NCBI GenBank assembly: GCA_964651255.1
Contig: CAZYWU010000001.1
Span: 131,890-195,889 of the forward strand
From: an uncultured Anaerolineales bacterium
Lineage (GTDB): Bacteria > Chloroflexota > Anaerolineae > UBA1429
Direction of reading: 5' to 3'
DNA: 64,000 nt
The translations under genes and the position numbers were made by a program. The notes beneath the pieces are model-generated. The model saw only the letters and a list, made by a program, of their open reading frames with translations. It did no database searches and was not told where the DNA came from. How positions within the stretch are numbered: the first letter of the stretch is position 1; every line of letters starts with the position of its first letter. Shown here one piece after another: positions 16,170-29,195 of this stretch.

Positions 16170-16183
16170 GATCTTCTCTCCGC

Positions 16184-17182
16184 CTAGGTGATCTGGAGCG
16201 TGTAACTTGTGTGCGCCGGGCGATTTACATCGATGATGCGCTCGATGATCCGCCGGTCGATCTCTCGATCCCCGCTGACGATAATCACACGAAAGGTGTG
16301 CGGGCCGTCGACATTTTCCTCTATTCGAACCTCGCATCCCGTGGCGATGCGCAGATGGGTCGATAGCCCGTCAACGGTGCCTCTCGCCTGGTGCAGCCAG
16401 TTGGCTTTGAGCAGCAACTCTCGTTGTGTCTCCGGCGACCAGTGCTCGTCGACCAGATGGGCCATCCAGTCGTTGAGCCACGGCAGGAACGTCTCCGGTG
16501 CGGTATCTGGATTCAGGAACATGTCCCAGTGGGCAACGATCTGCTGGATTGGGCCGATCAGATCCTCAAAGACCAGCAGATAGCGCCCGATAAAGTCCGT
16601 TTGGGCGTATATCGGCGGAAGGTACTGCAGCCAGCGGCTTGCCCGCGATGGCATACCCACCCAGGGCTGAACAGGCGCCGGTCCCATCACGGTGATCGGG
16701 GCCTCTGGCGGCGGGCCAGCGGGGCTCTCCGGTGGTCGCCTGGAGGCGCGCCGGGTACCCAGCCGCTCCAGCATGGCCAGGTCCACGGGGGGCGACTCTA
16801 TTTCTTGCTCAGGCGGCACCTCTGCTTCTGGCGTTTCTTCGTGCGCTGTCATAGAGGGCTCTTCCGTCACAAGCTGCTCAAAGGTCAGGCGGAATGGCCC
16901 GATCGCGATCACATCGCCGGGCTTGAGGGGCCGCGGCTCGTTAGGGGCCAGGGGCAAGTCGTTCAGCTGCGTCCCGTTGCTGCTGCCGAGATCTTCGATC
17001 CGGTACGGTTCGCGATCGCCCAGGATCCTAGCATGAACCCGCGACACCCAGGCGTGAGCAAGAACCAGGCTGGCCTGGGTCGAGTCGCGGCCAATCAGGA
17101 CCAGCGGCTCCTCAATCGTATACTCTCTGGCCGGTTCGTCGGGTGACACGATCACCAGCCTGTAACGAGGTTGCTGAGTCAT
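16184..17182 (-). CDS. CIS baseplate wedge protein, P2 gpI-like (Afp12-type), with N-terminal FHA domain
   Basis: N-terminal FHA (LVLIGRDSTQASLVLAHAWVSRVHARI...SSNGTQLN), a Pro-rich linker, and a C-terminal Tail_P2_I-like domain (FLPWLNDWMAHLVDEHWS...). ATG at 17182, 10 nt after the baseplate-J stop. Confidence 0.75.
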   Translation of the reverse strand: MTQQPRYRLVIVSPDEPAREYTIEEPLVLIGRDSTQASLVLAHAWVSRVHARILGDREPYRIEDLGSSNGTQLNDLPLAPNEPRPLKPGDVIAIGPFRLTFEQLVTEEPSMTAHEETPEAEVPPEQEIESPPVDLAMLERLGTRRASRRPPESPAGPPPEAPITVMGPAPVQPWVGMPSRASRWLQYLPPIYAQTDFIGRYLLVFEDLIGPIQQIVAHWDMFLNPDTAPETFLPWLNDWMAHLVDEHWSPETQRELLLKANWLHQARGTVDGLSTHLRIATGCEVRIEENVDGPHTFRVIIVSGDREIDRRIIERIIDVNRPAHTSYTLQIT

Positions 17183-17192
17183 CTCGTCAGCC

Positions 17193-19178
17193 TCATTCCA
17201 CCATGATCTCGACCTGGTGAATATCGGAAACAACGACCTCGTGCGCCAGCAAGTCGATCTTGCGGTCCGCCTGGTGGGCACGATCCTCGTCGTCGATCCA
17301 ATACATGTCGATGTTCTGAACGTTGAGCAAGCCCTCTACCTTTTGGATACAGCTGTAGAGATCGGAAAGGTACAACTCGCGGCCGAAAGGCCATCCGGTG
17401 CCCGCCGGCCCGCCACGGAGCGGGTTCACGAACCGGTCCAGCGCTGAGCGGATGTCCGCACCCAGGCGCCGTTCATCGACCTCCGGTCGCGCTATGACCT
17501 GTGCGCTGATACGGATGCGCTTGTAGCCTGCAGCCTGTACCTCAAGCTGGGTCGTCAGCAGGCGGCGGGCGTTCAGAAACGCCGTGATCCGCTCCTGGAG
17601 GTCGGATGAAAGCGCCAGCCGGGGCAGGGGAATGTAGTGGGTGGCCTCCTCTTCAGGCAGGTTCGGAATCACGAGCACGTACACCTGGCCAGGGCCACTG
17701 CGGTCCGCTCCCATACCCGCAAAGGCCGTCTGGAGGCAACACACACGGGCAACCTCGCCCTTGAAGGCATCCAGGGTGAGGAACTCATAGTCCTCCGGCG
17801 TGACCGCGCGGTAACGCGATCGCAGCAGGTTGCGGGCCCGAAACATGGCCTGTTCGAGTGTCTCCTGATCCAAACCGCCCTGTGCTGCTGTGCGGTTTGA
17901 GGTGCGGTCGATGTAGGCCAGCGCCGCACGCGGCTCGGTGATCGAGGCTGCCCGCACATTGCCTGCCGTACCGCCGCCATAGCGGTAGCGCGAGAACCGG
18001 AGCTCAGCCCCGCGTGGCGGCAGGGCACCGTAGCGCAACACGGTACCGTCGCGCTGCCGGAGTGCGGGTCCAAAGCGTACCTCGCCGGTCGCGCTGTCCA
18101 GCGCGTAATGACGGTCCTGAGGGCCAGATTCGGCGAGGGTTTCAACCTCCTCCCATGGCTCCCATCCCTCCATGCCCGGCATCCAGATTTCGACGCGCTC
18201 ATCCGCGTGGCGCGGCAGGACGGGCGTGTGTTCCAGATGGAACACTTGGCCAGGAGACCCGTCGCTCCTGCCCAGCGCCTCATTGGCGATTTCTGTGGCA
18301 TGCGAGGCCATCACGGTCGCGCCCCAGGTCACCATTTCCAGACGCCGCAGAATGGGCGAGGTGGCGTAGGGGCGCTGATCTTCGCGCGGCGGCGTCACCT
18401 GACAGCGGATCCAGTAGGCTTCGATGCCATTGATCTCGGAGCGCGACATGACAGGCAGGTGCATCCGGACCTGTCCGGTAAAGCTCATACCGCCGGTCGA
18501 GTCCACCTCAACGTCCGTGTCGCGCCAGCCATTGGCGGTCCATGCCTGCCAGACGATGGGCGGCGATTCGGGGATGATATTCAGTCCCCCGGCCCGCACG
18601 GCAGCCATGTCCAACCCGATATAATGATGGTCCAGATTGACGTCGAACCCGACGTACAGCGCGTCGCCCTCGGCGGGGCGGTCCGGGCTGAATACGGAGA
18701 ACTCGCCGCTCAGCCGGGCCAGGGGCACCTCGTGATAGGCCATGCCGCCGTCGGCGCTGCGATAGCGCGTGACGATGTGCAGCAGCCGGGCGGGGCGGAT
18801 CTCCAGGCTCTCCTCGGTGGTAAAGACTACCGCCTCGCCGCCGGCTCGTGACGTGGCTGTGGCGGTGCCTCGCGGGACCGTGATGGTCTGCTGTTGTGGC
18901 GCGGAGAGGTAAAAGGTCACCGGCACAGAGGCAGCCTGCGGTGGCTCGAGTTGGATGCCCAGCAGGTTGAGCAGTTCGATATAGTGCCGCGCCGGCATCT
19001 GGTTGACCCGGTAGAGCAGGATATCGACCATCCATGCGAACAACTCAATCAGAGTGACGCCCGGGTCGCTGACGTTGTGGTCCGTCCATTCCGGACAATA
19101 CAGCGGGATGCGCCTCTTGGCCTCATCGACCAGGTCCTGAAAGGAGCGATCGTCGAGCGGCTGCGTGGGTAACGGCAT
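17193..19178 (-). CDS. CIS baseplate protein, phage baseplate J / gp6-like (Afp11-type)
   Basis: 661 aa with the N-terminal PLYCPEWTDHNVSDPGVTLIELFAWM motif of the baseplate-J family (TIGR02243-like). Confidence 0.85.
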   Translation of the reverse strand: MPLPTQPLDDRSFQDLVDEAKRRIPLYCPEWTDHNVSDPGVTLIELFAWMVDILLYRVNQMPARHYIELLNLLGIQLEPPQAASVPVTFYLSAPQQQTITVPRGTATATSRAGGEAVVFTTEESLEIRPARLLHIVTRYRSADGGMAYHEVPLARLSGEFSVFSPDRPAEGDALYVGFDVNLDHHYIGLDMAAVRAGGLNIIPESPPIVWQAWTANGWRDTDVEVDSTGGMSFTGQVRMHLPVMSRSEINGIEAYWIRCQVTPPREDQRPYATSPILRRLEMVTWGATVMASHATEIANEALGRSDGSPGQVFHLEHTPVLPRHADERVEIWMPGMEGWEPWEEVETLAESGPQDRHYALDSATGEVRFGPALRQRDGTVLRYGALPPRGAELRFSRYRYGGGTAGNVRAASITEPRAALAYIDRTSNRTAAQGGLDQETLEQAMFRARNLLRSRYRAVTPEDYEFLTLDAFKGEVARVCCLQTAFAGMGADRSGPGQVYVLVIPNLPEEEATHYIPLPRLALSSDLQERITAFLNARRLLTTQLEVQAAGYKRIRISAQVIARPEVDERRLGADIRSALDRFVNPLRGGPAGTGWPFGRELYLSDLYSCIQKVEGLLNVQNIDMYWIDDEDRAHQADRKIDLLAHEVVVSDIHQVEIMVE

Positions 19179-19185
19179 AGTAGCG

Positions 19186-19581
19186 CTACTCCTCGGGAAT
19201 CAGATAAAAGGGGTACACCAGGCTGCGGCTGGAATGGGTAGACCGGATTGTATACCTCACATTGATTAACATGCGGGCTGTATCCTCCGGGTCAGGGGAT
19301 GCGGTCACCTGCTCGACCTGGATTCGCGGTTCCCAGCGCCCCAGGGCCAGCCGCACAAAGCGCTCGGCCTGGGCGATGGTCTGTAGATTGTTGGGTGCAA
19401 AGACGATCTCATTCAGCCGGCAGCCGAACTCTGGGCGCATGACGCGCTGGCCGGGGGAGGTCATCAGGATGATGCGGATCGATTCCTCAATCTCCTGCTC
19501 CCCCGACACGGTGGCGATGCGACCGCGATGGTCCAGCCGCGGCGGAAAGGCCCAGCCTCTTCCGATGATATCGTCCGACAC
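19186..19581 (-). CDS. CIS baseplate wedge protein, gp25/GPW lysozyme-like (Afp9-type)
   Basis: 131 aa with the GRGWAFP...RPEFGC motif of GPW_gp25. Confidence 0.85.
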   Translation of the reverse strand: MSDDIIGRGWAFPPRLDHRGRIATVSGEQEIEESIRIILMTSPGQRVMRPEFGCRLNEIVFAPNNLQTIAQAERFVRLALGRWEPRIQVEQVTASPDPEDTARMLINVRYTIRSTHSSRSLVYPFYLIPEE

Positions 19582-19613
19582 GTGATGCTCCTTATCGCTG
19601 CTGAACGAAGGCG

Positions 19614-20018
19614 CTACCCTCCGGCCATGACCGTGCCCGTGGCGATCACGGTTCCGGCCGGGGCCGGGTTGATGTCATCGCAGGTCCGCGCGGAATCCCC
19701 GTTCCGCGCGACTCCCTGACCATTGACCAGCACCGTCGTGCTGCCCATCACAATGGTAGCCAGGTTGGTGGGCGGCACCTGAAAGCTTGGGCCCCCAATA
19801 GGTATGTGCGGCGGCTGGTTCACCGCCGTGCTATTGACCGTGGCGACCGGCATGCCCCCGATCATTACGTTGCTGCTGAGCCCTCCGTTGATCATGCCGT
19901 TGAATGGATGCCCGGGCGTTGGCGTTGGCACAGGACCGCCCGGCGAGGGCACCATCACGATGTGCGTATCCATCGCGGTGACCATGTCCCCCATTTTCGC
20001 GATCGGCTGTGCTGGCAT
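19614..20018 (-). CDS. PAAR-domain spike-tip protein (Afp10-type)
   Basis: 134 aa, Gly/Pro-rich with repeated xxGxP..G blocks and ARNGDS.C, typical of PAAR cones. Confidence 0.75.
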   Translation of the reverse strand: MPAQPIAKMGDMVTAMDTHIVMVPSPGGPVPTPTPGHPFNGMINGGLSSNVMIGGMPVATVNSTAVNQPPHIPIGGPSFQVPPTNLATIVMGSTTVLVNGQGVARNGDSARTCDDINPAPAGTVIATGTVMAGG

Positions 20019-20030
20019 GATGCTCGCCTG

Positions 20031-21731
20031 CTACGGGTTCAGCTGGATCATGGCACCCTTGATCGTCAGGTTGCCGCTGGCCTCTATTTCCATGTTCGCA
20101 CCAGCCTTGATGCTGACGTTCGTGCCCCCTTCGATCTCCAAGTCACCGTCGCCCTTGATCGTGATCTTTCGCCCATTATCGTCCAGAGATAGTACGGCGC
20201 CGCCCGAGGTCGTAATCTCCACCTTGCCATCATCGTCGTGCAGCACCAGGATGTGACCGCCGGCGGTCTCGATCTGGACAAAGGCCTCGTTTTCCTCCGC
20301 CAGAGTGATCTTGTGTCCCACTCGTGTGACCAGGGCGCGCTGGACGATACTCCCGTTGGCTACTGATGTAGCCCTGTCGATCGGGGTGGCATCCTGGCCG
20401 TTCCAGAGGCCGCCAATCACGACCGGGCGTTCGATGTCTCCCTGCTCAAAAGCCACCAGGACCTCGTCATTGACCTCGGGCAACCAGTAGATGCCACGAT
20501 CCGGACCGGCGCCCGTGCCGATGACGCGCGCCCAGGGGCTGCTCAGGTCCGGGTTCAGCCACGGGAACTTGACCGTGACGCGTCCCATCTCGTCGGGATC
20601 GTTGATATCGGTAACGATACCCGTCATCACTGGCCAGCTTGTACCGGGTCGTACGTCCCTGTCGAGCAGTCGCGCCAGCGTGTCGTCGCGGCGGCCGCGC
20701 ACGGTAAAGTACGTGACATAGTCGCGCTCTGTATTCCACACATGTCTGGCCGTGGTGACCCGATACGTGCCGCTGAACCGGTTCCCCAGCGCGGTGATGT
20801 TCGCCATCTTGCGGGCCTGCAACTCGGGCATGCCAAAGCACTCGCCTTCGGCCTCGACAAAGGCGCCGTCGTACTCGTCCAGTATGGCCTGTGCCAGTTC
20901 ATCCGCCTCGGCCTGGTCCGCGACACTGGTGGCGACAGTCAGCTCGCTGGCACTGCCAAAGACATTCTCTGCCAGGCTGCCGCCCGTGCCTTGCTCTCCG
21001 ATCGATGGCGCGGCCTCGCCCGATGTCGCCCGGCCCACGATCTCGTTTTTCGTGGAAGGGTCCCAGCCCCGCACCTGCACCTCACTGACCTGCTCGCCCA
21101 GGCTGAGGATGGGCCGGAAACTGCGCAGGTTCTCGCCCCACTCAAGATTGACAGTTTCGCCCTGTGCCGTGCCCGCCTTGAAGCAGAGGGTGCGACCCTC
21201 GACATAGACGTCATAGCCGATTCTGCGCGCTCGCTCGCGAAGAAACGCCATGTGGGTTTGGCCGTGCTGGAACACGTGCTTGTGCTCGGTCGATGTCGCC
21301 TCGACGTCCGCGCGCAGCTGCACCTGACTGGCGACATCGGACGCGATGGCGCTGTCGGTCATGTTGGTGTAGGTTCTGGTGATGGCACCGCGATGCAGGC
21401 GATGCGACCGGTCGTAGGCGCGCACCACCAGATCGGCGACTGTGCCCTCGCGAAAGTCAGGCTCGATCCCGGTGATCTCACCGTCAAAGAGCGCGGTCTC
21501 CCCGCGGCCCTGTTCATCAGCGACGCCCACTTCGAGGCTGGCCCCCAGGTCAAAGGGCCCGTTGTTGATCAGCTCGGCCCCCGTGTCGTGCACGTTCAGC
21601 ACACACATTGCCGGGAGCGTCAGGCTGCTCTCGACCTCGACCCGGTAGAGCTCGTCCATGACGGCGGTCTGGAGCGAGGTCCCGTTGATTTTGACATAGA
21701 GTTGTCGACTCAGGGCTGCATCGCGGCTCAC
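20031..21731 (-). CDS. VgrG-like central spike (gp27/gp5 fusion, phage late-control-D-like; Afp8-type)
   Basis: 566 aa with a gpD/VgrG N-terminal region and a C-terminal beta-helix repeat (GGAVLSLDDNGRKITIKGDGDLEIEGGTNVSIKAGANMEIEASGNLTIKG). Confidence 0.9.
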   Translation of the reverse strand: MSRDAALSRQLYVKINGTSLQTAVMDELYRVEVESSLTLPAMCVLNVHDTGAELINNGPFDLGASLEVGVADEQGRGETALFDGEITGIEPDFREGTVADLVVRAYDRSHRLHRGAITRTYTNMTDSAIASDVASQVQLRADVEATSTEHKHVFQHGQTHMAFLRERARRIGYDVYVEGRTLCFKAGTAQGETVNLEWGENLRSFRPILSLGEQVSEVQVRGWDPSTKNEIVGRATSGEAAPSIGEQGTGGSLAENVFGSASELTVATSVADQAEADELAQAILDEYDGAFVEAEGECFGMPELQARKMANITALGNRFSGTYRVTTARHVWNTERDYVTYFTVRGRRDDTLARLLDRDVRPGTSWPVMTGIVTDINDPDEMGRVTVKFPWLNPDLSSPWARVIGTGAGPDRGIYWLPEVNDEVLVAFEQGDIERPVVIGGLWNGQDATPIDRATSVANGSIVQRALVTRVGHKITLAEENEAFVQIETAGGHILVLHDDDGKVEITTSGGAVLSLDDNGRKITIKGDGDLEIEGGTNVSIKAGANMEIEASGNLTIKGAMIQLNP

Positions 21732-21747
21732 ATTGATAACCTCGCTG

Positions 21748-22407
21748 CTATTCCATCGGCGGGATGATGATCAGCCGTCCGGTGCGCAGGTGCAAAGGAT
21801 CGTCTATCCCGTTGGCCTGGGCGATCTGTCGCCACTTGGTGCTGTCTCCGTACGCGTCATAGGCGATGAGATCGAGCCGGTCGCCCGCATCGAGCATGCG
21901 TGTGGTCGGGGCGATCCCGCCCCCGGACGTGGGGTTCTGCCCCAGAATGTCAAAGGCATCGCTCACCTGCTGCAGGCTGATCTGGATCGTGCTGCGCACC
22001 GCGGTACCGGAGGGCAGAAACAGGCCGATCTGCTCGCTCATCTGCGTGATGACCGCCTCAAAGGAAAAGGCGCCCCAGATAAACATGCAATGGGGCGGTT
22101 CACTCTTGCCCGTGCGCGGGTCCGTGCGCGCGTCGTCTACCATCATCATGTTCCAGAGATGCGCTGTCAGAGAGCGGACATCCTGGCCCGCGTCCAGTGT
22201 GTCAAAGAGCAAGCGCAATGTCAGAGTCTGAGCGCCGCCCTGCTGGAACCGGATGTGCGGGATGTTCTTGCCTTTGGTATCTGCCTGCTCGTAAGAGTTA
22301 GTCTTGGCGATGGTGTACTCGTACGGGTTGAACATGCAGGGCACAGACTCCCCCGTGTTCTTGTTCACGAGCACTGCGGGCGCCAGACCTCCTCGTGTTG
22401 TCGGCAT
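21748..22407 (-). CDS. CIS tube-initiator / LysM-domain protein (Afp7 / P2 gpX-U-like)
   Basis: N-terminal PCMFNPYEYTI motif and a C-terminal LysM (DRLDLIAYDAYGDSTKWRQIAQANGIDDP). Confidence 0.85.
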   Translation of the reverse strand: MPTTRGGLAPAVLVNKNTGESVPCMFNPYEYTIAKTNSYEQADTKGKNIPHIRFQQGGAQTLTLRLLFDTLDAGQDVRSLTAHLWNMMMVDDARTDPRTGKSEPPHCMFIWGAFSFEAVITQMSEQIGLFLPSGTAVRSTIQISLQQVSDAFDILGQNPTSGGGIAPTTRMLDAGDRLDLIAYDAYGDSTKWRQIAQANGIDDPLHLRTGRLIIIPPME

Positions 22408-22421
22408 CTCTACGTTTCTCC

Positions 22422-24503
22422 TTAGCGCAGGCGCGAGCCACCCATGCGCTCACGCTCCACACGCAAACGATCTCTCAGCTTGCTGAACACACGTTCCGCC
22501 AGTTCTTCGATATCCGGAGCCCGTTCCGCTTGCGGAGACTCTTCAGATTCTGCCGGGGCAGTCTCCGTAGAGGAATCTGCGCGGGTTGTATCCGCGGGCG
22601 CCTCGGCGCGCCGGATAGGCGGGCCCGGCGAGTCCCCTCGATCTCGTGTAACGCGAGTTGGTGCAGCCATGGATGCGACCACCTGATCGATAGGCAGTAC
22701 CTGCCTCGGAAGTGGGTGGGGAGCGCCGGGCGTCAACCTCTGTTGCTCAGCCGTAGCCAGTTGGGCAGGGGTGCGGTCCGGGAAACCGGTCTGCCTGCGC
22801 ACAGGCGGATGTTGCGATGTCGGCGTCACGGCGGACAAGGCAGATCCTCCTGCTGAGGCTGGCGGCGTCTGGGCCGGCGGTACCTCCTGTACCCATTGCG
22901 CCGACTCGCGCGGTGACCGCGGCTGGATCGGAGGCGCGCTGGAGGGCGGGAGCTGTGCTATAGCTGGCTCAGGCCAGGGCGGTATCGTCTCAGGCTCGGT
23001 GCTCGCCTCAGTCGCAAAGCGCTGCAACTGCGCCCGGTAAGCCTCGGCCAGATCCAAGCTCGCAGGGACGCTCTGCACAGGAGCATGTTCCGAACCGGGT
23101 GCCCGCCGTTGTTCGGCCGCTGCGGTGACGGCTGGTGCCTGCACATCGGGACTGCGCCTCACAACCGGCTTTACTGGAGGCGCGTCGGGTTCGACCGCGG
23201 GCTCAAACGATGGTGCCTCCGGTCTGGTCAATGCGCCTTCTGGTGTCTCTGGGAGCGCCGCGGCAGCGGCCCGGATATGGTGTAAAGCATCTCTCTGTTC
23301 TACCCGCGCTGGCGACGGCTCGATGGCGTCAGACTGCAGCGTAACGGCTGGCGCGGGCGCCATGGGCATCTCGGGAATGGGCTCGCTATCGCTTGGCACA
23401 GGCTGCGTATCCGCCGGTCGTGCCACCTGCTCGCGCGTCGCCTCAGGCGTGGCGGTGGGGCCGGCGGGAGCAGATCTCTCTTCAGGTGCACGGTAGACCG
23501 CCTGTGCCCGGGAGATCGCCTCGGACTCGCGCCGCAGCGGTTGCGCGGAGCTAGATGCGTCCGAGGGGCCCGCCGTTCCAGTCTCCGCCGGCGGCGGCGT
23601 CTCGGCCGTCGTGTCCGCAAGATCAGTCGCGGGCCTTACTGGCACGCCTGGCGTCCCAGTATCGAAATCCGGCACAGCCGTCTCGCGCCTCACGGTCTGG
23701 GAAGTCGTTGGACCCTGCCCCTGGGGCGATACGGTTGCCTCTGTCGTCGAAACCGTGCTCTGCGTTTCCGCGGTACGCCGGATCAGTGGCGCTGCGAGCT
23801 GAGAGGTCGGCCTGTCCGCTGTGCCCTCGGCACGGGCTGGCCCTCGTGCCGCCTGTGTTCGGACCGTGTCCGTTGGCGTGCCCGCTTGTTGTGCCGGAGG
23901 CTGTTCATAGAGCTGCGAGACGGGTTTGGGCCGCGCCCCGGGCGCGGGAGGCGTGGCAGATGCCGTTGCGGAGGGCCGCGCGCCTCCTCGTGCCTGCCCA
24001 GCGGCCTGCGTACCTGGTGAGGCCTGGCTTGATGCCGGCGACCGGGGCCGCTGGAGCGCTCGCCGTACCTCTTCCACGGTAAAGCCGGGCCGTGGTGGGG
24101 CCAGAGGTTCCGAAGCTGGCTCTGCGTCCGGTGAGAGGGGACCCCCATCTCTCGCGCCCAGGGCGGACACCGCGCCCGTGAATCCTGACTGGTGGCCACG
24201 ACCGCGCTCAAGTATCTCTACTTCCGGAGTCATGAGCGCCAGCGCAGGGGATTGAGATGGTTCTGTGGCCGGTGCAGAGGCGGGCCTGGCCGGCTCGATG
24301 GTGCGCTCGATGACCGGTGACACGCGCGCCGGCGTTGGCTCGGCAATGCTCTGCACGACTGGATGCCTTGTCAGCGTCATGGGGGTATATCGCGTGGCCT
24401 GCCGCTGCAGAGGCCCGGGTTCCGGCTCCGGTATGATGTACCGGCGCTTGATATGCCGGGCGAAAGCCACGCTGACAAGTCGCAGGCCGTTCCCGTCTGT
24501 CAT
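22422..24503 (-). CDS. proline/alanine/threonine-rich low-complexity protein in the tape-measure (Afp14) position
   Basis: 693 aa. Position between tube 2 and the LysM protein matches the P2-like tube–tape-measure–U/X order. ATG overlaps the tube-2 stop (ATGA). Only the short N- and C-termini look non-repetitive. Confidence 0.5.
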   Translation of the reverse strand: MTDGNGLRLVSVAFARHIKRRYIIPEPEPGPLQRQATRYTPMTLTRHPVVQSIAEPTPARVSPVIERTIEPARPASAPATEPSQSPALALMTPEVEILERGRGHQSGFTGAVSALGARDGGPLSPDAEPASEPLAPPRPGFTVEEVRRALQRPRSPASSQASPGTQAAGQARGGARPSATASATPPAPGARPKPVSQLYEQPPAQQAGTPTDTVRTQAARGPARAEGTADRPTSQLAAPLIRRTAETQSTVSTTEATVSPQGQGPTTSQTVRRETAVPDFDTGTPGVPVRPATDLADTTAETPPPAETGTAGPSDASSSAQPLRRESEAISRAQAVYRAPEERSAPAGPTATPEATREQVARPADTQPVPSDSEPIPEMPMAPAPAVTLQSDAIEPSPARVEQRDALHHIRAAAAALPETPEGALTRPEAPSFEPAVEPDAPPVKPVVRRSPDVQAPAVTAAAEQRRAPGSEHAPVQSVPASLDLAEAYRAQLQRFATEASTEPETIPPWPEPAIAQLPPSSAPPIQPRSPRESAQWVQEVPPAQTPPASAGGSALSAVTPTSQHPPVRRQTGFPDRTPAQLATAEQQRLTPGAPHPLPRQVLPIDQVVASMAAPTRVTRDRGDSPGPPIRRAEAPADTTRADSSTETAPAESEESPQAERAPDIEELAERVFSKLRDRLRVERERMGGSRLR

Positions 24504-24931
24504 GACACCGTCACCATCTCGTAGGCCAGTTCCAGAGATTCTATCGCGATCGCGGAACTGCCCGCACTGAGCTCGGGCCCGCTCCACTTGGTGGGAAAGG
24601 CCATGTGAAAGTCCCAGCGGATAACTGGCTCACCGGCGTCGTCCAACAGCGTCACCGACACCTGCTTACGGGCCGCCATCAGCTGGCCCTGAATCACCTG
24701 GGTGTACCAGGCCATCAGGTCGCTGCCGGTGGCCACGCCTCGTTTGAGCGTCAGCGTGCCTCGGCGAACGCGCCCGGGCAGAGGGTGCGATCCCACGTTA
24801 TAGCCGCCCTCTTTCTGCTCCTGGATCTCTACCTCCAGTGCCGGGAGGGTGCATTCGGTGAATGTCGCTCCCGGAAGACCGTCGATCTGGACGCTAAAGC
24901 GATAGGCGGGATGGGCATCCGGACGTTCCAT
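24500..24931 (-). CDS. CIS inner tube protein, paralog 2 (Afp5/T4 gp19-like)
   Basis: 143 aa with YRFSVQIDGL...FTECT..., homologous to the tube protein at 25459-25902. Confidence 0.85.
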   Translation of the reverse strand: MERPDAHPAYRFSVQIDGLPGATFTECTLPALEVEIQEQKEGGYNVGSHPLPGRVRRGTLTLKRGVATGSDLMAWYTQVIQGQLMAARKQVSVTLLDDAGEPVIRWDFHMAFPTKWSGPELSAGSSAIAIESLELAYEMVTVS

Positions 24932-25089
24932 CAGGTCCCGACCTCATTGGTGTGAATTCTGTCGACCTCGCGCACCCATCGCCGGCGCTCGGGATGTTCG
25001 AGTGACAGGATGTCGTCCCGTGACCAGTGCAAGTAATAGGCCAGGTACGCTACCTCCTCGAGCATCCGGTCGAGGGGGTAGCGCGTCAT
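24931..25089 (-). CDS. 52-aa conserved-looking microprotein, translationally coupled between the 119-aa ORF and tube 2
   Basis: The internal ATG at 25089 overlaps the stop of the upstream ORF (ATGA). Its own stop overlaps the tube-2 ATG (TGATG). The longer 69-aa ORF in the track would overlap the upstream gene by 55 nt. Confidence 0.4.
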   Translation of the reverse strand: MTRYPLDRMLEEVAYLAYYLHWSRDDILSLEHPERRRWVREVDRIHTNEVGT

Positions 25090-25445
25090 TCCCCCAGTGG
25101 CACGATCTCCTGTCGAAAGACCGTATGACAGTTCGGGCATTCCACCTCGATCGTATCGGCGCCGGTCTCGTTGATACGCCTGTAAAAGTCTTGCAGGTAG
25201 GCCATATCTGCGGCGAACAGGTTTTCGATGACATGAGGGGTCACCTGGTCCAGACTGCCCAGGCGAGTGACGACGCGCGACAGCAGCAGTATCGCCAGGT
25301 AAGCCTCGTTAGATCGCACGCGCATGTCCCGGAGCGGGGCGATCTCATCCATTGCCGTGGCCAGCCTCATCACGCCCTGGCGATGGACCCGCCCCTCTCC
25401 GTCGACGTACCCGCGCGGAAGCTCGAAGGGGAACTCTGTCTGCAT
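25086..25445 (-). CDS. 119-aa CIS-associated hypothetical protein (Afp6-position) with C-terminal CPNC zinc-ribbon-like motif
   Basis: Located between the two tube genes. GGAGG SD 5 nt before the ATG. No confident family assignment. Confidence 0.55.
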   Translation of the reverse strand: MQTEFPFELPRGYVDGEGRVHRQGVMRLATAMDEIAPLRDMRVRSNEAYLAILLLSRVVTRLGSLDQVTPHVIENLFAADMAYLQDFYRRINETGADTIEVECPNCHTVFRQEIVPLGE

Positions 25446-25458: not shown

Positions 25459-25902
25459 CTAGCTTACGCGGAATAGGCCCTCATGGGTGATCACGAGCTC
25501 CTCGACCCCCAGCTCATTGCTATCCGCCTTGATGGACGGACCGGACACCTTGACTGGCCAGGCTTTCTCAAAGTTCCAGCGGGCCACCTCGTTCAGGCCC
25601 TGGTCGAACATGATGATCGATCCCTCACGGCGGGCCTCGTCGACCTTGCCCTGAACGACCAACTCACGCCAGTCCCAGATGTCCATGTTGTCGGTGATAC
25701 CGCGCTTGAGCGTGATGTTCTCCCATTTGAGCCGGCCGGGGATTTTGAGCACATGCTCTCGCCCGGCTTCATCGACGACCTTGTGCTCGATCACCTCGTT
25801 CTCGGAGCCGATGCCGGAGCACTCGGTAAAGTACCCGGTGACCTCGCCCGCAACATCAATCGCATAGTGAAAACCAACAAGCGGATCTTTTCGGTCCGTC
25901 AT
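25459..25902 (-). CDS. CIS inner tube protein, paralog 1 (Afp1/T4 gp19-like)
   Basis: 147 aa, FHYAIDVAGEVTGYFTECSG...LKRG, the classic eCIS/T6SS-Hcp-like tube signature. Confidence 0.9.
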   Translation of the reverse strand: MTDRKDPLVGFHYAIDVAGEVTGYFTECSGIGSENEVIEHKVVDEAGREHVLKIPGRLKWENITLKRGITDNMDIWDWRELVVQGKVDEARREGSIIMFDQGLNEVARWNFEKAWPVKVSGPSIKADSNELGVEELVITHEGLFRVS

Positions 25903-25938: not shown

Positions 25939-27504
25939 CTAGGCCGCGGCGGGCCCCGCCCACTGGCTGATACGGAAGATCACAAACTCCGCCGGCTTGA
26001 CCGGGCAGATGCCGATCTCGATGATCAACTGGCCCAGGTCGCGCACTTCGACCGGATTCAGTTCCTCATCGCACTTTACATAAAACGCCTCATTGGGGGT
26101 TGTGCCAAAGAGTGCGCCGGATGTCCACACTGTACGCAGGAAGGCCGTCACATCGCGCCTGACGCGCGCCCAGAGGTCCGGGTCGTTAGGCTCAAAGACG
26201 ACCCACTGTGTGCCGCGCTCGATGGATTCCTCCACCATGTTAAAGAGGCGACGCACATTGATGTATCGCCACGCCGGATCGCTGCTCAGCGTGCGGGCGC
26301 CCCAGATGCGGATTCCGCGGCCGGGGAAGGCACGGATGCAGTTCACCCCGATGGGGTTCAGCGCATCCTGCTCGCCTCGGGTGAGCTGAACCGGAAGGCC
26401 AGTGGCGCCGCGGATCACCTCGTTGGCCGGGGCCTTGTGCACCCCGCGCTCGGCATCGCTGCGCGCATAGACACCCGCAATGTGGCCAGAAGGCGGAATG
26501 CGGATGCTCCCCTTACCCTTGACCATATCTGCGGTCTCGATCCAGGGATAGTACAGCGCAGCGTACTTGGTATCATAGTTGCTGGACTGGCGCCACTGCA
26601 GCATCGCCTGAGGACTGAGATCGGGCGGGCAGTCCAGAATAGCAAAGCTGTACTTGCTCTGCTCGCAGTGCTCGTACAGCGCCTGCTGTACCGCCTGGAC
26701 ATCCTGCAGCGACATCTCGCCAGACTGGAAGCTCTGCATCAGGTCCGGCACCGCCACCATCGTGACCTCGTCTACGGGCGTGAGGCCACCCAGCCCGGTG
26801 CGTTCTGCCACTTCGCCCCGATAGGCCGCCACGGTGAGCGCTTTGGTCTCGATCTTGCCGCCCTGCAGGGTATACTCGCCGGCGCGCGGTCTGCGCTCCG
26901 CCAGTGTGCCCTTGCTTTGCTGCACCTGCACCGTGATGAACCGAGACCGCGTATTGACCACCGTCTCGACATTCTGATCGCCCTTGCCCAGAGTTAGATC
27001 CTGAAAGGTCTCTGTACCGCCGGGAGCTGAGATGATCAGCGTAAAGGTCTCGGCGGCCGGGTCCTCAGGCTCGCGCACTGTGACCTTGATCTCGTTGCCG
27101 CTCGGGCCGCCAGACCTGGCCTTGATCTGAAGCGTGTCGCCGCCGCCTTCCGCGCGCGCCGGTAGTGCCGCGACAGCCGGCGTGGCCAGCCGTTCGTCCA
27201 CAGAGGCGCCCAGTGCCTTGACAGAGACTACGTAGCAGCGACTACCCCCGTTCGCAAAGTAACCATAGACCGAATAGGGCAGGTAGGCCCCCTCGACAAA
27301 CCCACCGAATTTGTCGGTGTACTGGGTCCAGTTGGTGATGGCCACGGGGCGATTCTGGAGCGAGGTCACCTCGCCATTGCTGACTTCCTCAGCCTTTTCG
27401 GTAAAGCCGATAAAGGCTGCGACAGCCGTGCCCACGGCCTCGATGGGCCGGGTTCCGCCCTCACGTTCTTCGATGTAAACACCAGGTGACAGATAAGTTG
27501 GCAT
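25939..27504 (-). CDS. contractile sheath protein (Afp2-4 / phage tail sheath family)
   Basis: Starts MPTYLSPGVYIEE (the ATG at 27504 is preceded by AGGA). 521 aa. Only one sheath gene is present in the locus. Confidence 0.9.
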   Translation of the reverse strand: MPTYLSPGVYIEEREGGTRPIEAVGTAVAAFIGFTEKAEEVSNGEVTSLQNRPVAITNWTQYTDKFGGFVEGAYLPYSVYGYFANGGSRCYVVSVKALGASVDERLATPAVAALPARAEGGGDTLQIKARSGGPSGNEIKVTVREPEDPAAETFTLIISAPGGTETFQDLTLGKGDQNVETVVNTRSRFITVQVQQSKGTLAERRPRAGEYTLQGGKIETKALTVAAYRGEVAERTGLGGLTPVDEVTMVAVPDLMQSFQSGEMSLQDVQAVQQALYEHCEQSKYSFAILDCPPDLSPQAMLQWRQSSNYDTKYAALYYPWIETADMVKGKGSIRIPPSGHIAGVYARSDAERGVHKAPANEVIRGATGLPVQLTRGEQDALNPIGVNCIRAFPGRGIRIWGARTLSSDPAWRYINVRRLFNMVEESIERGTQWVVFEPNDPDLWARVRRDVTAFLRTVWTSGALFGTTPNEAFYVKCDEELNPVEVRDLGQLIIEIGICPVKPAEFVIFRISQWAGPAAA

Positions 27505-27605
27505 CTCTCTATCCTTTGACTGATAGCAGGCCGGGGACATGACCGGCGTGCGACGAGGTCCACTGGTCCGGAGCTATAGAGCGATACCCTCCTTTCTTGT
27601 GGTGG

Positions 27606-28436
27606 CTATATCTCGAGGTCGTATGATTCCAGGCTTTGCGGCGGCACGGGCACGCGGTGCGTCGCCTCGCGGCCATCCGCCTGCACTCGGAGCCGGTATT
27701 CTCCGCCCGATAGCCCACCAAAGCGATAGCGTCCAAAGTGGTCGGTGAGGCAAGTCTGCCCCGTCTCTATCACGCTAACTGTGGCCCTGGGTACAGCAGG
27801 GCCACCCCTGGCCTGAAAAACGATGCCCGCGATCTCAAAGGTCGTCGACCGCGTAGCTTCGGCAGCATTGCGGTCAAGAACATCCACGCGCCGAGAGATG
27901 ACCCACGGGCTCGTAAAGGCCACGGCACGCTCCATGGCCAACGTGACTGTATAGTTGATCGAGGGCCTGAGCTGGTTCTCCATGACGCCCCAGAGATCGG
28001 GCAGGTTCTCGATGGCGCGCGAAGGCTGAGCGGTTCGCGCGTGCACCGGATAGGGCTGATTGCGCAGGCCGGGCTCAAGGATTTCCGTGTCCAGCGTCGG
28101 CGTGCCAGCCAGCGCACCAAGCACGCGCCACAGTATCGCGTGTTCATCCTCCACCTGATTCTGCGTCCAGACGGTGACCAGGTACGAGAGATCGTAGCGC
28201 AGAGGCGCCAGCCGCTTGCTGACCTGGCCTTCAGAATCACGCTCGACGATCCACTCTTGTGAACGAAGCTCCGTATTCTCCCGTATGTCGTACAGGTAAA
28301 AGTTGATCGTCGGGCGCGTCAGTCCAGCAGCCCAGTCGCCGGTGGGCTGGTCAAAGCTCACCGTGACACTGTCCGTGTCAAAGTTGCCGTGCTTTAGCAC
28401 CAGATTCCGGATGGTCTCGTCGAGCTGATTGATCAT
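27606..28436 (-). CDS. CIS tail terminator/cap, DUF4255 (Afp16/Pvc16-like) with carboxypeptidase-regulatory-like C-terminal domain
   Basis: N-terminal LTRPTINFYLYDI DUF4255 signature. C-terminal GIVFQARGG...GRYRFGGLSGGEYRLRV beta-sandwich. Confidence 0.8.
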   Translation of the reverse strand: MINQLDETIRNLVLKHGNFDTDSVTVSFDQPTGDWAAGLTRPTINFYLYDIRENTELRSQEWIVERDSEGQVSKRLAPLRYDLSYLVTVWTQNQVEDEHAILWRVLGALAGTPTLDTEILEPGLRNQPYPVHARTAQPSRAIENLPDLWGVMENQLRPSINYTVTLAMERAVAFTSPWVISRRVDVLDRNAAEATRSTTFEIAGIVFQARGGPAVPRATVSVIETGQTCLTDHFGRYRFGGLSGGEYRLRVQADGREATHRVPVPPQSLESYDLEI

Positions 28437-28505: not shown

Positions 28506-29195
28506 CTATGCTTCCTCCAACTCTTCCTCTTCTTGCCGGCGCACTGTCTGTACCGCTTCTTCCTCCTCCTCCTCGTCCTCGGCCTGGCGCTGGACAGCGT
28601 CGCCTCCGGTGTCTGGCGCCCTGCTGGCCAGGCGCTGCACCACCTGATCGGCCATGGCGTCCGCCTCGAGTTCGGCGGGGTCATTGGCAGCACCTACATC
28701 CAGCTTGGCGCCATCTTGCTGCTGTGCAACGTGGGCGAGTTCGTGAGCCAGCAAGCGCTGCCCGTCCCCGGTCGCCGGGTTGTACTGGCCGGCGGAGAAA
28801 AAGATGTCGTTGCCCCGCGTAAAGGCCCGTGCTGACAGCTCAGAGTTCAGCGTATCAGCCTCAGAGTCGTTGTGTATGCGAACCCCCGCAAAGTCGGCCC
28901 CAAAGGCTCCTTCCATGCTCTGTCTGGTCGCGTGATCCATGGCTGACCCCGATCCAGCCTGGGAATCGATGGCGCGCTCCACATGCTCGGGGGCCACAAA
29001 GGCGTCTTCCTGTGCAAAGCGCCGCGCGATCCGGTTGCCCGCGCGCCGGGCGACCTCGCGCAGGACGTGCGGTGTCAGCACCCGCGCCAGACGAGATGGC
29101 CGGGCGCGTGGCGACGTTTCGGCGTCGACTGTGTTCGAGGGCTGCTGTACAGCCAGTCTACTTCTTGTGCGGATCCATTCATGCTCAGTACTCAT
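28506..29195 (-). CDS. DUF4157-like protein with HExxH motif and polyglutamate C-tail (possible CIS effector/payload)
   Basis: LLAHELAHVAQQQ zincin-like motif inside a DUF4157-type core. C-terminus RQAEDEEEEEEAVQTVRRQEEEELEEA. ATGA overlap with the ATPase stop. Confidence 0.65.
   Translation of the reverse strand: MSTEHEWIRTRSRLAVQQPSNTVDAETSPRARPSRLARVLTPHVLREVARRAGNRIARRFAQEDAFVAPEHVERAIDSQAGSGSAMDHATRQSMEGAFGADFAGVRIHNDSEADTLNSELSARAFTRGNDIFFSAGQYNPATGDGQRLLAHELAHVAQQQDGAKLDVGAANDPAELEADAMADQVVQRLASRAPDTGGDAVQRQAEDEEEEEEAVQTVRRQEEEELEEA

What the first reader, a model, noticed from the sequence alone, without database searches (positions are those of the whole stretch)
22422..24503. Extremely Pro/Ala/Thr-rich 693-aa protein occupying the tape-measure slot
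Gene order (tube – X – LysM/U-like – spike) puts this ORF where P2-like tails encode the tape-measure protein, and its ATG overlaps the tube-2 stop. But canonical tape measures are largely alpha-helical, whereas this sequence is dominated by PxxP/A/T/Q repeats that would be intrinsically disordered. Either this is an unusual disordered length ruler, or the real ruler is absent and this is a lumen-loaded cargo or spacer.
Basis: inference. Interest (0 to 1): 0.55.

Follow-up and report, generated by a model that had tools for sequence, protein, structure and literature searches.

The report
Disordered tape-measure-like protein of injection system
A real 693-residue, mostly unstructured Pro/Ala-rich protein sits where phage tails encode their length ruler in a Chloroflexota phage-tail-like injection system; it is the best candidate for the ruler that this group of systems is reported to lack, but the evidence cannot yet tell a ruler from tube cargo.

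Summary
The ORF is real. It lies on the minus strand at 22422-24503, encodes 693 aa, and its ATG overlaps the tube-2 stop (ATGA). Composition is A 16%, P 15.7%, R 10%, T 9%. It belongs to a 16-gene extracellular contractile injection system (eCIS) of an Anaerolineae-type Chloroflexota genome.

It matches no known family, including Pfam CIS_TMP, which does detect Afp14. AlphaFold2 gives pLDDT below 50 for 599 of 693 residues. The one confident long element is a C-terminal helix (665-687).

In all 80 related loci, one long P/A-rich ORF lies immediately upstream of the Afp7-like tube initiator. Among 54 intact copies it is 549-1310 aa, median 681. Only its last ~30 residues are conserved: D-x-x-x-L-A-x-x-V-Y-x-x-Φ-R-R-R-L-x-V-E-x-E-R.

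The closest homologue has the same length and no indels at 69% identity, while flanking genes are 95-99% identical. A phage tail-assembly-chaperone homologue lies upstream.

Best reading: a tube-lumen protein docked in the spike and tube-initiator hub by its C-terminal helix, most likely the length ruler. It resembles published Tme proteins but lacks their DUF4157 and effector domains. Ruler versus cargo or spacer stays unresolved. "PxxP repeats" and an Afp14 relationship are not supported. It is a new variant of a known kind.

The parts
22422..24503 (-). X: 693-aa Pro/Ala/Thr/Arg-rich protein, the slot protein between tube-2 and the tube initiator
   Evidence: ORF and translation. ATGA overlap with the tube-2 stop. 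Homologues of 693 and 694 aa. No family hit. AF2 mean pLDDT 41.
22425..22514 (-). C-terminal amphipathic helix motif, residues 664-693: DIEELAERVFSKLRDRLRVERERMGGSRLR
   Evidence: It is the only part conserved across all 80 related loci (alignment A3) and in the 1.84-billion-protein HMMER search. AF2 predicts helix 665-687 with pLDDT 84-95. It is the longest Pro-free stretch.
24279..24503 (-). N-terminal conserved region, residues 1-75, with the basic segment LRLVSVAFARHIKRRY
   Evidence: Nearly invariant among the three close homologues. More distant slot proteins carry a different but analogous Arg-rich N-terminal segment; 25 of 54 share NPLxxRVxRHxxxxTLFR.
22998..23063 (-). Internal conserved helix, residues 481-502 (LDLAEAYRAQLQRFATEA...)
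   Evidence: Invariant island in alignment A1. AF2 helix with pLDDT 74-81.
24042..24083 (-). Internal conserved island, residues 141-154 (FTVEEVRRALQRPR), holding two of the ten hydrophobic-[Q/R]-R motifs
   Evidence: Invariant in A1. AF2 helix 143-151. The motif is enriched, 10 observed against 4.3 expected.
25086..25445 (-). 119-aa tail-assembly-chaperone homologue with a C-terminal CxxC zinc ribbon
   Evidence: PHROG 508 'tail assembly chaperone', E 3.8e-7. 50% identical to a Brasilonema protein annotated 'phage tail assembly protein'. Conserved in relatives.
24931..25089 (-). 52-aa DUF6760 protein, in the -1 frame relative to the chaperone gene, with an ATGA overlap
   Evidence: Pfam DUF6760, E 5.9e-11. 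Frame analysis.
24500..24931 (-). Tube protein 2 (gp19-like; Cis5/Afp5-like position)
   Evidence: Pfam Phage_T4_gp19, E 2.8e-38.
25459..25902 (-). Tube protein 1 (gp19-like)
   Evidence: Pfam Phage_T4_gp19, E 5.4e-36.
21748..22407 (-). Tube initiator (Afp7/Cis7-like: CIS_tube domain plus a LysM-like C-terminus)
   Evidence: Pfam CIS_tube, E 2.7e-24, with weak LysM and Tail_X hits.
20031..21731 (-). VgrG/gp27-gp5-like spike (Afp8/Cis8-like), the inferred docking partner of the C-terminal helix
   Evidence: Pfam Phage_base_V, E 1.1e-27, and Phage_GPD. The docking itself is inferred.
25939..27540 (-). Sheath protein
   Evidence: Pfam Phage_sheath_1 and Phage_sheath_1C.
27606..28436 (-). Cap / tail terminator (Pvc16_N plus a CarboxypepD_reg domain)
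   Evidence: Pfam Pvc16_N, E 9.6e-34.
28506..29195 (-). 229-aa eCIS_core (DUF4157) protein with an acidic tail holding AVQRQ and VRRQ motifs
   Evidence: Pfam eCIS_core, E 1.7e-31. Sequence.
29192..31315 (-). AAA+ ATPase (Afp15/Cis15-like); first gene of the cluster
   Evidence: Pfam WHD and AAA.
13197..20018 (-). Rest of the baseplate and accessory module: PAAR (19614-20018), gp25 (19186-19581), Baseplate_J (17193-19178), FHA+Tail_P2_I (16184-17281), Ser/Thr kinase-FHA-PLAT (13197-16337)
   Evidence: Pfam hits. The same gene order occurs in L001 and L002.

Best explanation
X is a structural protein that sits inside the tube of this Chloroflexota eCIS. Functionally it resembles a tape-measure protein (TMP), but it is built as an intrinsically disordered chain rather than a helical rod.

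Proposed mechanism:
1. The conserved C-terminal amphipathic helix (residues ~664-690), probably as a trimer, docks in the cavity formed by the spike (20031-21731) and the tube-initiator ring (21748-22407). This is where phage TMP C-termini and the Cis6/Pvc6 plug helix sit.
2. The ~640-residue Pro/Ala-rich, near-neutral chain runs up the tube lumen. The 119-aa tail-assembly chaperone (with or without DUF6760) handles it during assembly.
3. Tube-2 and then tube-1 polymerise around it. Conserved hydrophobic-[Q/R]-R islands may contact the tube lumen, which is negatively charged in the Anabaena CIS, AFP and PVC tubes.
4. When the tube reaches the N-terminal basic end of the chain, the Pvc16-like cap closes it, so chain length sets particle length. 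The published cross-CIS slope of 0.2156 nm per residue would predict about 150 nm.
5. On contraction the chain is expelled with the spike.

Shown: gene reality, position, composition, predicted disorder, the conserved C-terminal helix, the chaperone homologue, and conserved length in close relatives.

Inferred: docking site, trimer, lumen location, contacts, and ruler function.

My probabilities: about 0.8 that it is a hub-anchored lumen protein, and about 0.5 that it actually sets length.
For: - Position. X lies between tube-2 and the tube initiator plus spike, with its start overlapping the tube-2 stop. The chaperone homologue upstream (50% identical to a protein annotated 'phage tail assembly protein') completes a P2-like sheath-tube-chaperone-TMP-hub order.
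- No alternative. The cluster (13197-31315) has housekeeping flanks and no other TMP candidate.
- Conserved slot. In all 80 related Chloroflexota loci, one long P/A-rich ORF ends immediately upstream of the initiator gene with the same ~30-aa motif. Length in 54 intact copies is 549-1310 aa, median 681, interquartile range 653-745.
- Only the terminus is conserved. A full HMMER search of 1.84 billion representatives finds 13 hits; all but the query itself and two longer homologues match only residues ~625-693.
- The helix. AF2 predicts helix 665-687 at pLDDT 84-95 in an otherwise low-confidence model.
- Length under constraint while sequence drifts. The closest homologues are 693, 693 and 694 aa at 68-69% identity. 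There are no indels in 693 codons against L001. Nonsynonymous change is roughly 6-10 times that of neighbours, which are 95-99% identical.
- Extra length is only low-complexity sequence or tandem repeats, with no added domains, in the 1045-1310-aa versions. Phage TMPs grow the same way.
- Gene fusion. In Deinococcus grandis a gp19 tube domain, a P/A-rich chain, DUF4157 and the C-terminal motif form one 1259-aa ORF. This ties the chain physically to the tube.
- Literature. Tme of S. davawensis is ~70% disordered, encoded just upstream of the baseplate genes, and co-purifies with spike and tube initiator (PMC11126660). The Pvc6 plug is a helix trimer in the spike cavity, encoded between cis5 and cis7 (PMC12546770). 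Alg14 is an experimentally shown ruler at 0.229 nm per residue (bioRxiv 10.64898/2026.05.27.728243).
Against: - There is no sequence or profile similarity to any TMP family, to Afp14/Pvc14 (CIS_TMP), to PHROG tail proteins or to any PDB chain.
- The chain is not helical, unlike every characterised phage or eCIS tape measure.
- A flexible chain is a less obvious ruler, and I have no particle-length data.
- Other proteins with the same or a look-alike C-terminal motif carry the cargo-associated DUF4157 domain. The motif is significant for Deinococcus and only a look-alike for Kitasatospora. The published Tme is described as an effector.
- Slot-protein length does vary: outliers reach 1310 aa, and other close pairs differ by up to about 6%.
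- In the Deinococcus fusion both ends of the chain could lie near the baseplate, which fits a lumen loop better than a ruler.
- Homology of the C-terminal helix to Cis6/Afp6 was tested and not detected.
- A scan of viral contigs with a motif pattern found no phage relatives.
Confidence: 0.5

Rival explanations
1. X is lumen-loaded cargo or an inert spacer, not a ruler. The disordered chain is threaded into the tube, possibly by the AAA+ ATPase recognising its disordered or hydrophobic-[Q/R]-R motifs, and tethered by its C-terminal helix. Tail length is set by something else.
For: - Known eCIS cargo is loaded through disordered regions and needs the Cis15-type ATPase (bioRxiv 10.64898/2026.05.27.728243).
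- Proteins with the same or a look-alike C-terminal motif carry DUF4157, a cargo-associated domain, in Deinococcus and Kitasatospora.
- Tme, the closest published relative by architecture, is described as an effector (PMC11126660).
- Hydrophobic-[Q/R]-R motifs are enriched in X and also occur in the tail of the window's own DUF4157 protein.
- Slot-protein length ranges from 549 to 1310 aa.
- CIS described as lacking a typical tape-measure protein still assemble particles (PMC10066040; the Anabaena CIS paper PMC8894136 reports no tape measure).
Against: - X has no enzymatic or toxin domain, and its middle evolves almost freely. That is odd for an effector.
- It is a fixed, syntenic core gene in all 80 loci rather than a variable payload.
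- A tail-assembly chaperone, which acts on tape measures, is conserved beside it.
- Length and reading frame are exactly conserved at 31% amino-acid divergence.
Confidence: 0.27
2. X is essentially an enlarged Cis6-type spike plug. The C-terminal helix is the functional part, needed to seal the spike cavity and start assembly. The long disordered N-terminal part has a secondary role, such as tethering the separate DUF4157 protein or other cargo.
For: - X occupies exactly the cis5-cis6-cis7 slot of Afp, PVC, AlgoCIS and the Anabaena CIS (PMC12546770; PMC8894136).
- Pvc6 and Afp6 are short proteins whose C-terminal helix forms a trimer in the spike cavity, and they are essential for assembly (PMC12546770).
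- In 23 of 61 related loci a separate 50-90-aa protein carries a paralogous copy of the same helix. The helix therefore works as a stand-alone module.
Against: - There is no detectable homology to DUF5908/Afp6: no Pfam hit, hhalign probability 0.3%, no phmmer hits.
- It does not explain why ~640 extra residues keep their length and frame, or why a tail-assembly chaperone is present.
- This reading overlaps with the best explanation, because phage TMP C-termini also plug the hub.
Confidence: 0.18
3. The ORF is a chance open frame in GC-rich DNA, or a decayed pseudogene, and makes no functional protein.
For: The GC3 signal is weak (0.66 against 0.69-0.80 in neighbours). The amino-acid substitution rate is very high. 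No family hit exists.
Against: - The frame is 693 codons open and exactly fills the gap between two coupled genes.
- It is retained without indels or stops at 19% nucleotide divergence, with position 3 changing more than positions 1 and 2.
- An equivalent ORF with a conserved C-terminal peptide is present in all 80 related loci and in Deinococcus.
- No competing long ORF exists in the other five frames.
Confidence: 0.01

Closest known systems
Tme, the tape-measure-related effector of the Streptomyces davawensis CIS (Nagakubo et al. 2024, PMC11126660), and Tme-like genes
   Same: Both are long, largely disordered proteins (~70% in Tme) encoded just upstream of the tube-initiator and spike genes. 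Tme's sheath clade is reported to include Chloroflexota. The window's sheath is 52.6% identical to that of a Kitasatospora cluster holding a DUF4157 protein in the Tme position, which ends in a look-alike C-terminal motif. Tme co-purifies with spike and tube initiator.
   Different: X has no DUF4157 domain, which here sits on a separate 229-aa protein. It has no transmembrane or coiled-coil segments, no nuclease or other effector domain, and no detectable TMP homology. It is a third to a half the size. The C-terminal motif match to the actinobacterial proteins is by eye only (E >= 0.3).
Phage and eCIS tape-measure proteins (P2 gpT, T4 gp29, Afp14/Pvc14/Alg14; Pfam CIS_TMP PF19268)
   Same: Same position in the gene order relative to sheath, tube, chaperone and hub genes. 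A chaperone gene lies upstream. Size (693 aa) is in the range of eCIS tape measures. Length growth in relatives is by internal repeats.
   Different: No sequence similarity. Predicted to be ~87% disordered rather than helical. In Afp and PVC the tape-measure gene lies after the fibre gene, not in this slot.
Cis6/Afp6/Pvc6/Alg6 spike plug (DUF5908)
   Same: Identical gene slot between the cis5-like tube gene and cis7. Both have a C-terminal amphipathic helix of ~25 residues. Related loci also encode a ~55-aa stand-alone protein with X's helix motif.
   Different: X is 693 aa against ~55 aa. No detectable homology. In those related loci the small helix protein is encoded upstream of tube-2, not downstream.
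Disordered molecular rulers of type III secretion and flagella (YscP, FliK); comparison from my own knowledge, not tested here
   Same: These are precedents for a largely unstructured, Pro-rich polypeptide that measures the length of a tubular assembly from inside, with functional domains only at its ends and insertions or deletions changing length.
   Different: Unrelated machinery and no sequence relationship. The comparison is by mechanism only.

Membership tests
Afp14/Pvc14-type eCIS tape measure (Pfam CIS_TMP PF19268) | Sequence match to the CIS_TMP profile | tested here: not met
   No Pfam hit for X at E <= 0.01. As a positive control, the same library detects the Afp14 fragments of pADAP at E 1.4e-41 and 1.4e-6.
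Afp14/Pvc14-type eCIS tape measure (Pfam CIS_TMP PF19268) | Central region predicted mainly alpha-helical | tested here: not met
   AF2 gives helices for only ~11% of residues and pLDDT < 50 for 599 of 693. The median Pro-free stretch is 4 aa.
Phage tail tape-measure proteins (functional class) | Encoded between the tube/chaperone genes and the baseplate-hub genes | tested here: met
   The order is sheath, tube-1, chaperone, DUF6760, tube-2, X, initiator, spike. It is conserved in L001, L002 and about 60 loci.
Phage tail tape-measure proteins (functional class) | A dedicated tail-assembly chaperone is encoded upstream | tested here: met
   The 119-aa protein hits PHROG 508 'tail assembly chaperone' at E 3.8e-7 and is 50% identical to a protein annotated 'phage tail assembly protein'. 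Binding to X was not tested.
Phage tail tape-measure proteins (functional class) | Homology to a known TMP family (Pfam, PHROGs, NCBIfam, PDB) | tested here: not met
   No hits.
Phage tail tape-measure proteins (functional class) | Protein length determines tail length | not testable with these tools
   Only indirect evidence: lengths of 693, 693 and 694 aa with no indels at 69% identity, and an interquartile range of 653-745 aa over 54 loci.
Phage tail tape-measure proteins (functional class) | C-terminus bound inside the hub or spike complex | not testable with these tools
   A conserved, confidently predicted C-terminal helix exists.
Tme-like CIS effectors (Nagakubo 2024) | N-terminal DUF4157 (eCIS_core) domain | tested here: not met
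   X has no eCIS_core hit. The domain sits on a separate protein at 28506-29195. It is present in the Kitasatospora and Deinococcus counterparts.
Tme-like CIS effectors (Nagakubo 2024) | Large, mostly disordered ORF immediately upstream of the baseplate genes, with conserved synteny | tested here: met
   X is not the largest ORF in the cluster: the kinase ORF is 1046 aa and the ATPase 707 aa.
Tme-like CIS effectors (Nagakubo 2024) | Transmembrane helices, coiled coil, and a C-terminal effector (nuclease) domain | tested here: not met
   No domain hits. There are at most 16 hydrophobic residues per 50-aa block and no long hydrophobic run. The only long Pro-free stretch is the 30-aa terminal helix.
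Cis6/Afp6 spike plug (DUF5908) | Gene located between the cis5-like tube gene and cis7 | tested here: met
   Window order compared with pADAP afp5-afp6 (DUF5908)-afp7.
Cis6/Afp6 spike plug (DUF5908) | Small protein (~50-60 aa) matching DUF5908 | tested here: not met
   X is 693 aa. No Pfam hit for the last 52 residues. hhalign of motif alignment A3 against Afp6 gives probability 0.3%. phmmer with Afp6 or Pvc6 finds no slot protein.
Cis6/Afp6 spike plug (DUF5908) | C-terminal helix forming a trimer in the spike cavity | tested here: inconclusive
   A helix is predicted with high confidence. Its oligomeric state and location could not be tested.

The most novel reading that the evidence does not exclude
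An intrinsically disordered, proline-rich polypeptide acts as the length ruler of a contractile tail. It is anchored in the spike by a C-terminal helix and carries conserved hydrophobic-[Q/R]-R 'ticks' that contact the tube lumen. The same helix module occurs as a stand-alone ~55-aa protein in related loci, so tape-measure C-termini and Cis6-type plugs would be two forms of one ancestral hub-docking helix. This would name the ruler that lineage II eCIS are reported to lack.
Probability: 0.3. Interest if true: 0.75.

Novelty: new variant of a known kind. Interest (0 to 1): 0.6.

Why it matters
Published surveys and structural papers state that lineage II eCIS, the Streptomyces CIS and a haloarchaeal CIS lack an Afp14-type tape measure (PMC6899500, PMC10066040, PMC11566945). 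How these particles set their length is therefore open.

This finding defines a conserved, easily recognised slot family. It has a C-terminal D-x-x-x-L-A-x-x-V-Y...E-R-E-R helix, a disordered chain of conserved length, and an adjacent tail-assembly chaperone. It is present in at least 80 Chloroflexota genomes and in Deinococcus, with look-alikes in Actinomycetota.

That makes the question directly testable by changing the chain length and measuring particles. If a disordered chain is the ruler, it changes the view that contractile-tail rulers must be helical rods. It would also offer a simple handle for tuning the length and cargo capacity of engineered eCIS, and it links tape measures, Tme-type effectors and Cis6 plugs.

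If X is only cargo or a spacer, it is still a core, unannotated eCIS component worth adding to eCIS gene models.

Tried and rejected
- GC3 periodicity as a coding test is uninformative, because the composition raises GC1 and GC2.
- Word-indexed homology search with the C-terminal 104 aa returned nothing usable, even though close homologues exist. I treat this as a tool limitation.
- Searches of Pfam, NCBIfam, PHROGs and PDB sequences with X found no families.
- A PDB profile search with the C-terminal motif (A3) hit only designed repeat proteins, which I take as chance.
- Internal copies of the C-terminal motif within slot proteins were not found in any of 54 at independent E < 0.1. I dropped that idea.
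- The universal N-terminal motif idea was rejected. Only 25 of 54 share NPLxxRVxRHxxxxTLFR, and the window's clade has a different basic segment.
- PxxP enrichment and tandem repeats in X are not supported.
- Homology of the helix to Afp6/Pvc6 was not detected. The Afp14 C-terminus looks unrelated.
- The link to the S. clavuligerus and Kitasatospora C-termini is visually convincing but not significant (E >= 0.3). I report it as a lead only.
- The programmed -1 frameshift between chaperone and DUF6760 remains open. The frame relation fits, but there is no canonical slippery heptamer.
With the pattern ELA[RA]RVYx[EQ] it found no phage relatives.
- The Uversky charge-hydropathy plot is borderline (H 0.426 against a boundary of 0.417). 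The disorder call therefore rests on AF2 pLDDT and proline spacing.
- I did not run a fold search on the AF2 model, because a pLDDT-41 model gives meaningless matches.
Full report
**1. The observation**

The feature is a minus-strand ORF. The open frame runs 22422..24587 from a GTG. The sequence TCATGACA shows that this ATG overlaps the TGA stop of the upstream tube gene.

Composition is A 16.0%, P 15.7%, R 10.0%, T 8.9%, E 8.1%, S 7.9%, Q 6.2%. K, N, W and Y are almost absent.

Two details of the description fail:
- There are no repeats. Tandem Repeats Finder finds one weak 18-nt x2 match. PxxP occurs 20 times against 16.8 +/- 3.5 in shuffles.
- The suggested GC3 test is uninformative. GC1/2/3 are 0.73/0.64/0.66, because CCN, GCN, ACN and CGN codons dominate.

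**2. It is a real gene**

Two homologues of 693 and 694 aa exist at 68-69% identity, in the same gene order.

Codon by codon against locus L001 there are 693 aligned codons and no gaps. Per-site differences are 0.182, 0.150 and 0.244 at positions 1, 2 and 3. The flanking genes show 0.00-0.03 at positions 1 and 2, and 0.11-0.22 at position 3. X therefore evolves roughly 6-10 times faster at the protein level than its neighbours, which are 95-99% identical, yet it keeps its frame and exact length.

An equivalent ORF is present in every one of 80 related loci. No other frame holds a long ORF.

**3. Context**

The gene lies in a 16-gene minus-strand eCIS cluster at 13197-31315, flanked by housekeeping genes. 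The order is:
- AAA+ ATPase
- DUF4157 eCIS_core protein
- Pvc16-type cap
- sheath
- tube-1
- 119-aa protein
- 52-aa DUF6760 protein
- tube-2
- X
- CIS_tube+LysM initiator
- VgrG-type spike
- PAAR
- gp25
- Baseplate_J
- FHA+Tail_P2_I
- Ser/Thr kinase-FHA-PLAT

The 119-aa protein matches PHROG 508 'tail assembly chaperone' (E 3.8e-7). It is 50% identical to a cyanobacterial protein annotated 'phage tail assembly protein'. DUF6760 follows with an ATGA overlap in the -1 frame, but no canonical slippery site is present.

Relatives of the initiator protein place the organism in Chloroflexota, class Anaerolineae.

**4. What X looks like**

No Pfam, NCBIfam, PHROG or PDB-sequence match exists. Pfam CIS_TMP does detect Afp14 from pADAP (E 1.4e-41), so this negative result is meaningful.

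AlphaFold2 on the three-sequence alignment gives:
- mean pLDDT 41, with 599 of 693 residues below 50
- short helices at 143-151, 398-415 and 481-502
- one confident C-terminal helix at 665-687 (pLDDT 84-95)

The alignment behind this model is shallow. Independent support comes from proline spacing. The median Pro-free stretch is 4 residues, and the longest, 30 residues, is the C-terminus. A charge-hydropathy plot is borderline. There is no hydrophobic segment long enough for a membrane helix.

**5. Comparative analysis**

I used an alignment of initiator homologues to fetch 80 loci from species-representative genomes.

In the ~60 loci that contain both tube-2 and the initiator, the gap between them is filled by a single long ORF. 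Its composition is P 7-23%, A 8-25%, and P+A+T+S+Q+G 42-67%. Among 54 intact copies the length is 549-1310 aa, with median 681 and interquartile range 653-745.

BLAST detects similarity to X in only a handful of these slot ORFs, mostly where the initiator is at least 76% identical.

The last ~30 residues are conserved everywhere. The motif is [VI]-D-[ILV]-[DE]-x-L-A-[RE]-x-V-Y-x-x-Φ-[RK]-R-R-L-x-Φ-E-x-E-R, preceded by an acidic stretch. It always sits at the C-terminus of the ORF immediately upstream of the initiator gene.

An exhaustive HMMER search of 1.84 billion representatives with the full-length profile agrees. It finds 13 hits at E <= 1e-3. Apart from the query itself and two longer homologues, they match only about residues 625-693.

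The N-terminus is Arg-rich in all copies but falls into subfamilies.

Hydrophobic-[Q/R]-R motifs are enriched along the chain. The window protein has 10 against 4.3 expected (z 3.4), and 37 of 54 proteins have z > 2. In X these motifs coincide with the invariant islands of the three-way alignment.

The longest versions (1045-1310 aa) have no Pfam domains. Visible tandem repeats account for much of the 1310-aa copy.

**6. Beyond Chloroflexota**

- *Deinococcus grandis* (plasmid pDEGR-1). A 1259-aa ORF right after the sheath gene combines a gp19 tube domain (12-145), a P/A-rich chain, DUF4157 (1007-1080) and the C-terminal motif. The motif match is significant: 15 phmmer hits at E <= 1e-2, 12 of them at slot-protein C-termini.
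- *Kitasatospora*. The sheath is 52.6% identical to the window's. The gene following chaperone and DUF6760 is a 1243-aa DUF4157+PASTA protein ending ...DINHLVARLFDPLMSRIKRQLTEERTRAG.
- *S. clavuligerus*. An unannotated 1383-aa P/A-rich ORF in the same place ends ...DLDRLARRLVAPLSRLLRAELRGDRERVG.

The two actinobacterial matches are visual only (E >= 0.3). These clusters are of the type described for S. davawensis Tme. Tme is a ~70% disordered, DUF4157-bearing, TMP-related effector that co-purifies with spike and tube initiator (PMC11126660).

**7. The Cis6 connection**

In Afp the slot between afp5 and afp7 holds Afp6, a 55-aa DUF5908 protein. Structures show that Pvc6, Alg6 and Cis6 form a trimeric helix plugging the spike cavity, and that the plug is essential for assembly (PMC12546770, PMC8894136).

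X therefore sits in the plug slot and ends in a helix of similar size. In 23 of 61 related loci, a separate 50-90-aa ORF just upstream of tube-2 carries a paralogous copy of X's helix, for example ...VADKIYTKLMDDLEIERERQRP. Another 22 loci have DUF6760 there instead, and 3 have both.

Homology to Afp6/Pvc6 was tested and not detected.

**8. Interpretation**

The evidence points to a protein whose functional parts are its two ends, a few short islands and its length, not its sequence. The best-supported model is a tube-lumen protein docked by its C-terminal helix in the spike and initiator hub, as phage tape-measure C-termini and Cis6 plugs are. The chaperone homologue would handle it during assembly, and it would most likely set tube length.

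With the published cross-CIS slope of 0.2156 nm per residue (bioRxiv 10.64898/2026.05.27.728243), 693 residues predict a particle of about 150 nm. A pure helix would give 104 nm and a fully extended chain 249 nm.

I put about 0.8 on hub-anchored lumen protein and about 0.5 on ruler.

The main rival is cargo or spacer without length control (0.27). It is favoured by the DUF4157-bearing relatives and by the Deinococcus fusion, in which both chain ends might lie near the baseplate. An enlarged-plug reading (0.18) overlaps with the main model. A spurious ORF is excluded (0.01).

**9. Comparison with what is known, and novelty**

X fails the sequence and secondary-structure criteria for Afp14-type and phage tape measures. 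It meets the positional and chaperone criteria. It fails the DUF4157, transmembrane and effector criteria for Tme. It fails the size and profile criteria for Cis6.

It works most like a tape measure or Tme, and is best described as a minimal, domain-free, disordered variant of that kind.

The literature I could search says lineage II eCIS and the Streptomyces CIS lack an Afp14-type tape measure (PMC6899500, PMC10066040). I found no paper describing this family, its C-terminal motif, DUF6760, or a tail-assembly chaperone in an eCIS. I rate it a new variant of a known kind, with interest 0.6.

**10. Limits**

- No particle-length, proteomic or structural data exist for this system.
- The AF2 alignment was shallow.
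- The comparative set is dominated by metagenome-assembled genomes, a few with frameshifted or N-masked slot genes, which I excluded from the statistics.
- The Deinococcus fusion is a single instance.

Noticed in passing
One is a 119-aa tail-assembly-chaperone homologue (PHROG 508, E 3.8e-7) with a C-terminal CxxC zinc ribbon. The other is a 52-aa DUF6760 ORF in the -1 frame with an ATGA overlap; its frame is open back to 25140. The layout recalls phage G/GT or P2 E/E', but no canonical slippery heptamer is present.
   Followed up: partly
L036 7228-7422, L021 7429-7626, L033 7167-7436, L062 7213-7458 and others (23 of 61 loci): Many related Chloroflexota loci encode a small 50-90-aa ORF just upstream of tube-2. 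Its C-terminus is a paralogous copy of X's C-terminal helix motif (...VADKVYALLxxDLxIERERQR). In 22 loci DUF6760 occupies that place instead, and 3 loci have both. The window has only DUF6760.
   Followed up: partly
L084 13690-17469 (Deinococcus grandis plasmid pDEGR-1): A single 1259-aa ORF fuses a gp19 tube domain, a P/A-rich disordered chain, a DUF4157 eCIS_core domain and the C-terminal helix motif. It is a Rosetta-stone-type fusion of what are three separate genes in the window.
   Followed up: partly
window 22422-24503 (-), residues 32, 146, 150, 241, 271, 323, 448, 493, 568, 630; also 28506-29195 (-): Short hydrophobic-[Q/R]-R motifs (PLQRQ, ALQRP, PVRRQ, PIRRA and similar) are enriched over shuffles and coincide with the invariant islands of X. 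They are strongly enriched in longer slot proteins (z up to 19) and recur in the S. clavuligerus ORF. The acidic tail of the window's DUF4157 protein also holds AVQRQ and VRRQ. They may mark a shared binding partner, such as the tube lumen or the ATPase.
   Followed up: partly
window 13197-17281 (-): The cluster ends with an FHA domain fused to a Tail_P2_I baseplate protein and a Ser/Thr kinase-FHA-PLAT protein. The Brasilonema plasmid eCIS also has kinase and FHA genes next to it. This suggests phospho-threonine control of an eCIS, reminiscent of the PpkA/Fha1 control of type VI secretion (that comparison is from my own knowledge).
   Followed up: no
window 27606-28436 (-): The Pvc16-type cap protein carries a C-terminal CarboxypepD_reg (Ig-like) domain.
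   Followed up: no
window 16184-16337: The longest-ORF calls for the FHA-P2_I gene (365 aa) and the kinase gene (1046 aa) overlap by 154 nt. The homologues in L001 are 332 and 990 aa, so the true starts are probably internal and the overlap is an ORF-calling artefact.
   Followed up: partly
L085 16795-20946 (S. clavuligerus plasmid pF1D31A): A 1383-aa open frame (P 20%, A 16%) sits between the DUF6760-like gene and tube-2. It is not listed as a gene in the plasmid table; only a 71-aa fragment is. It ends in a look-alike of the C-terminal motif.
   Followed up: partly
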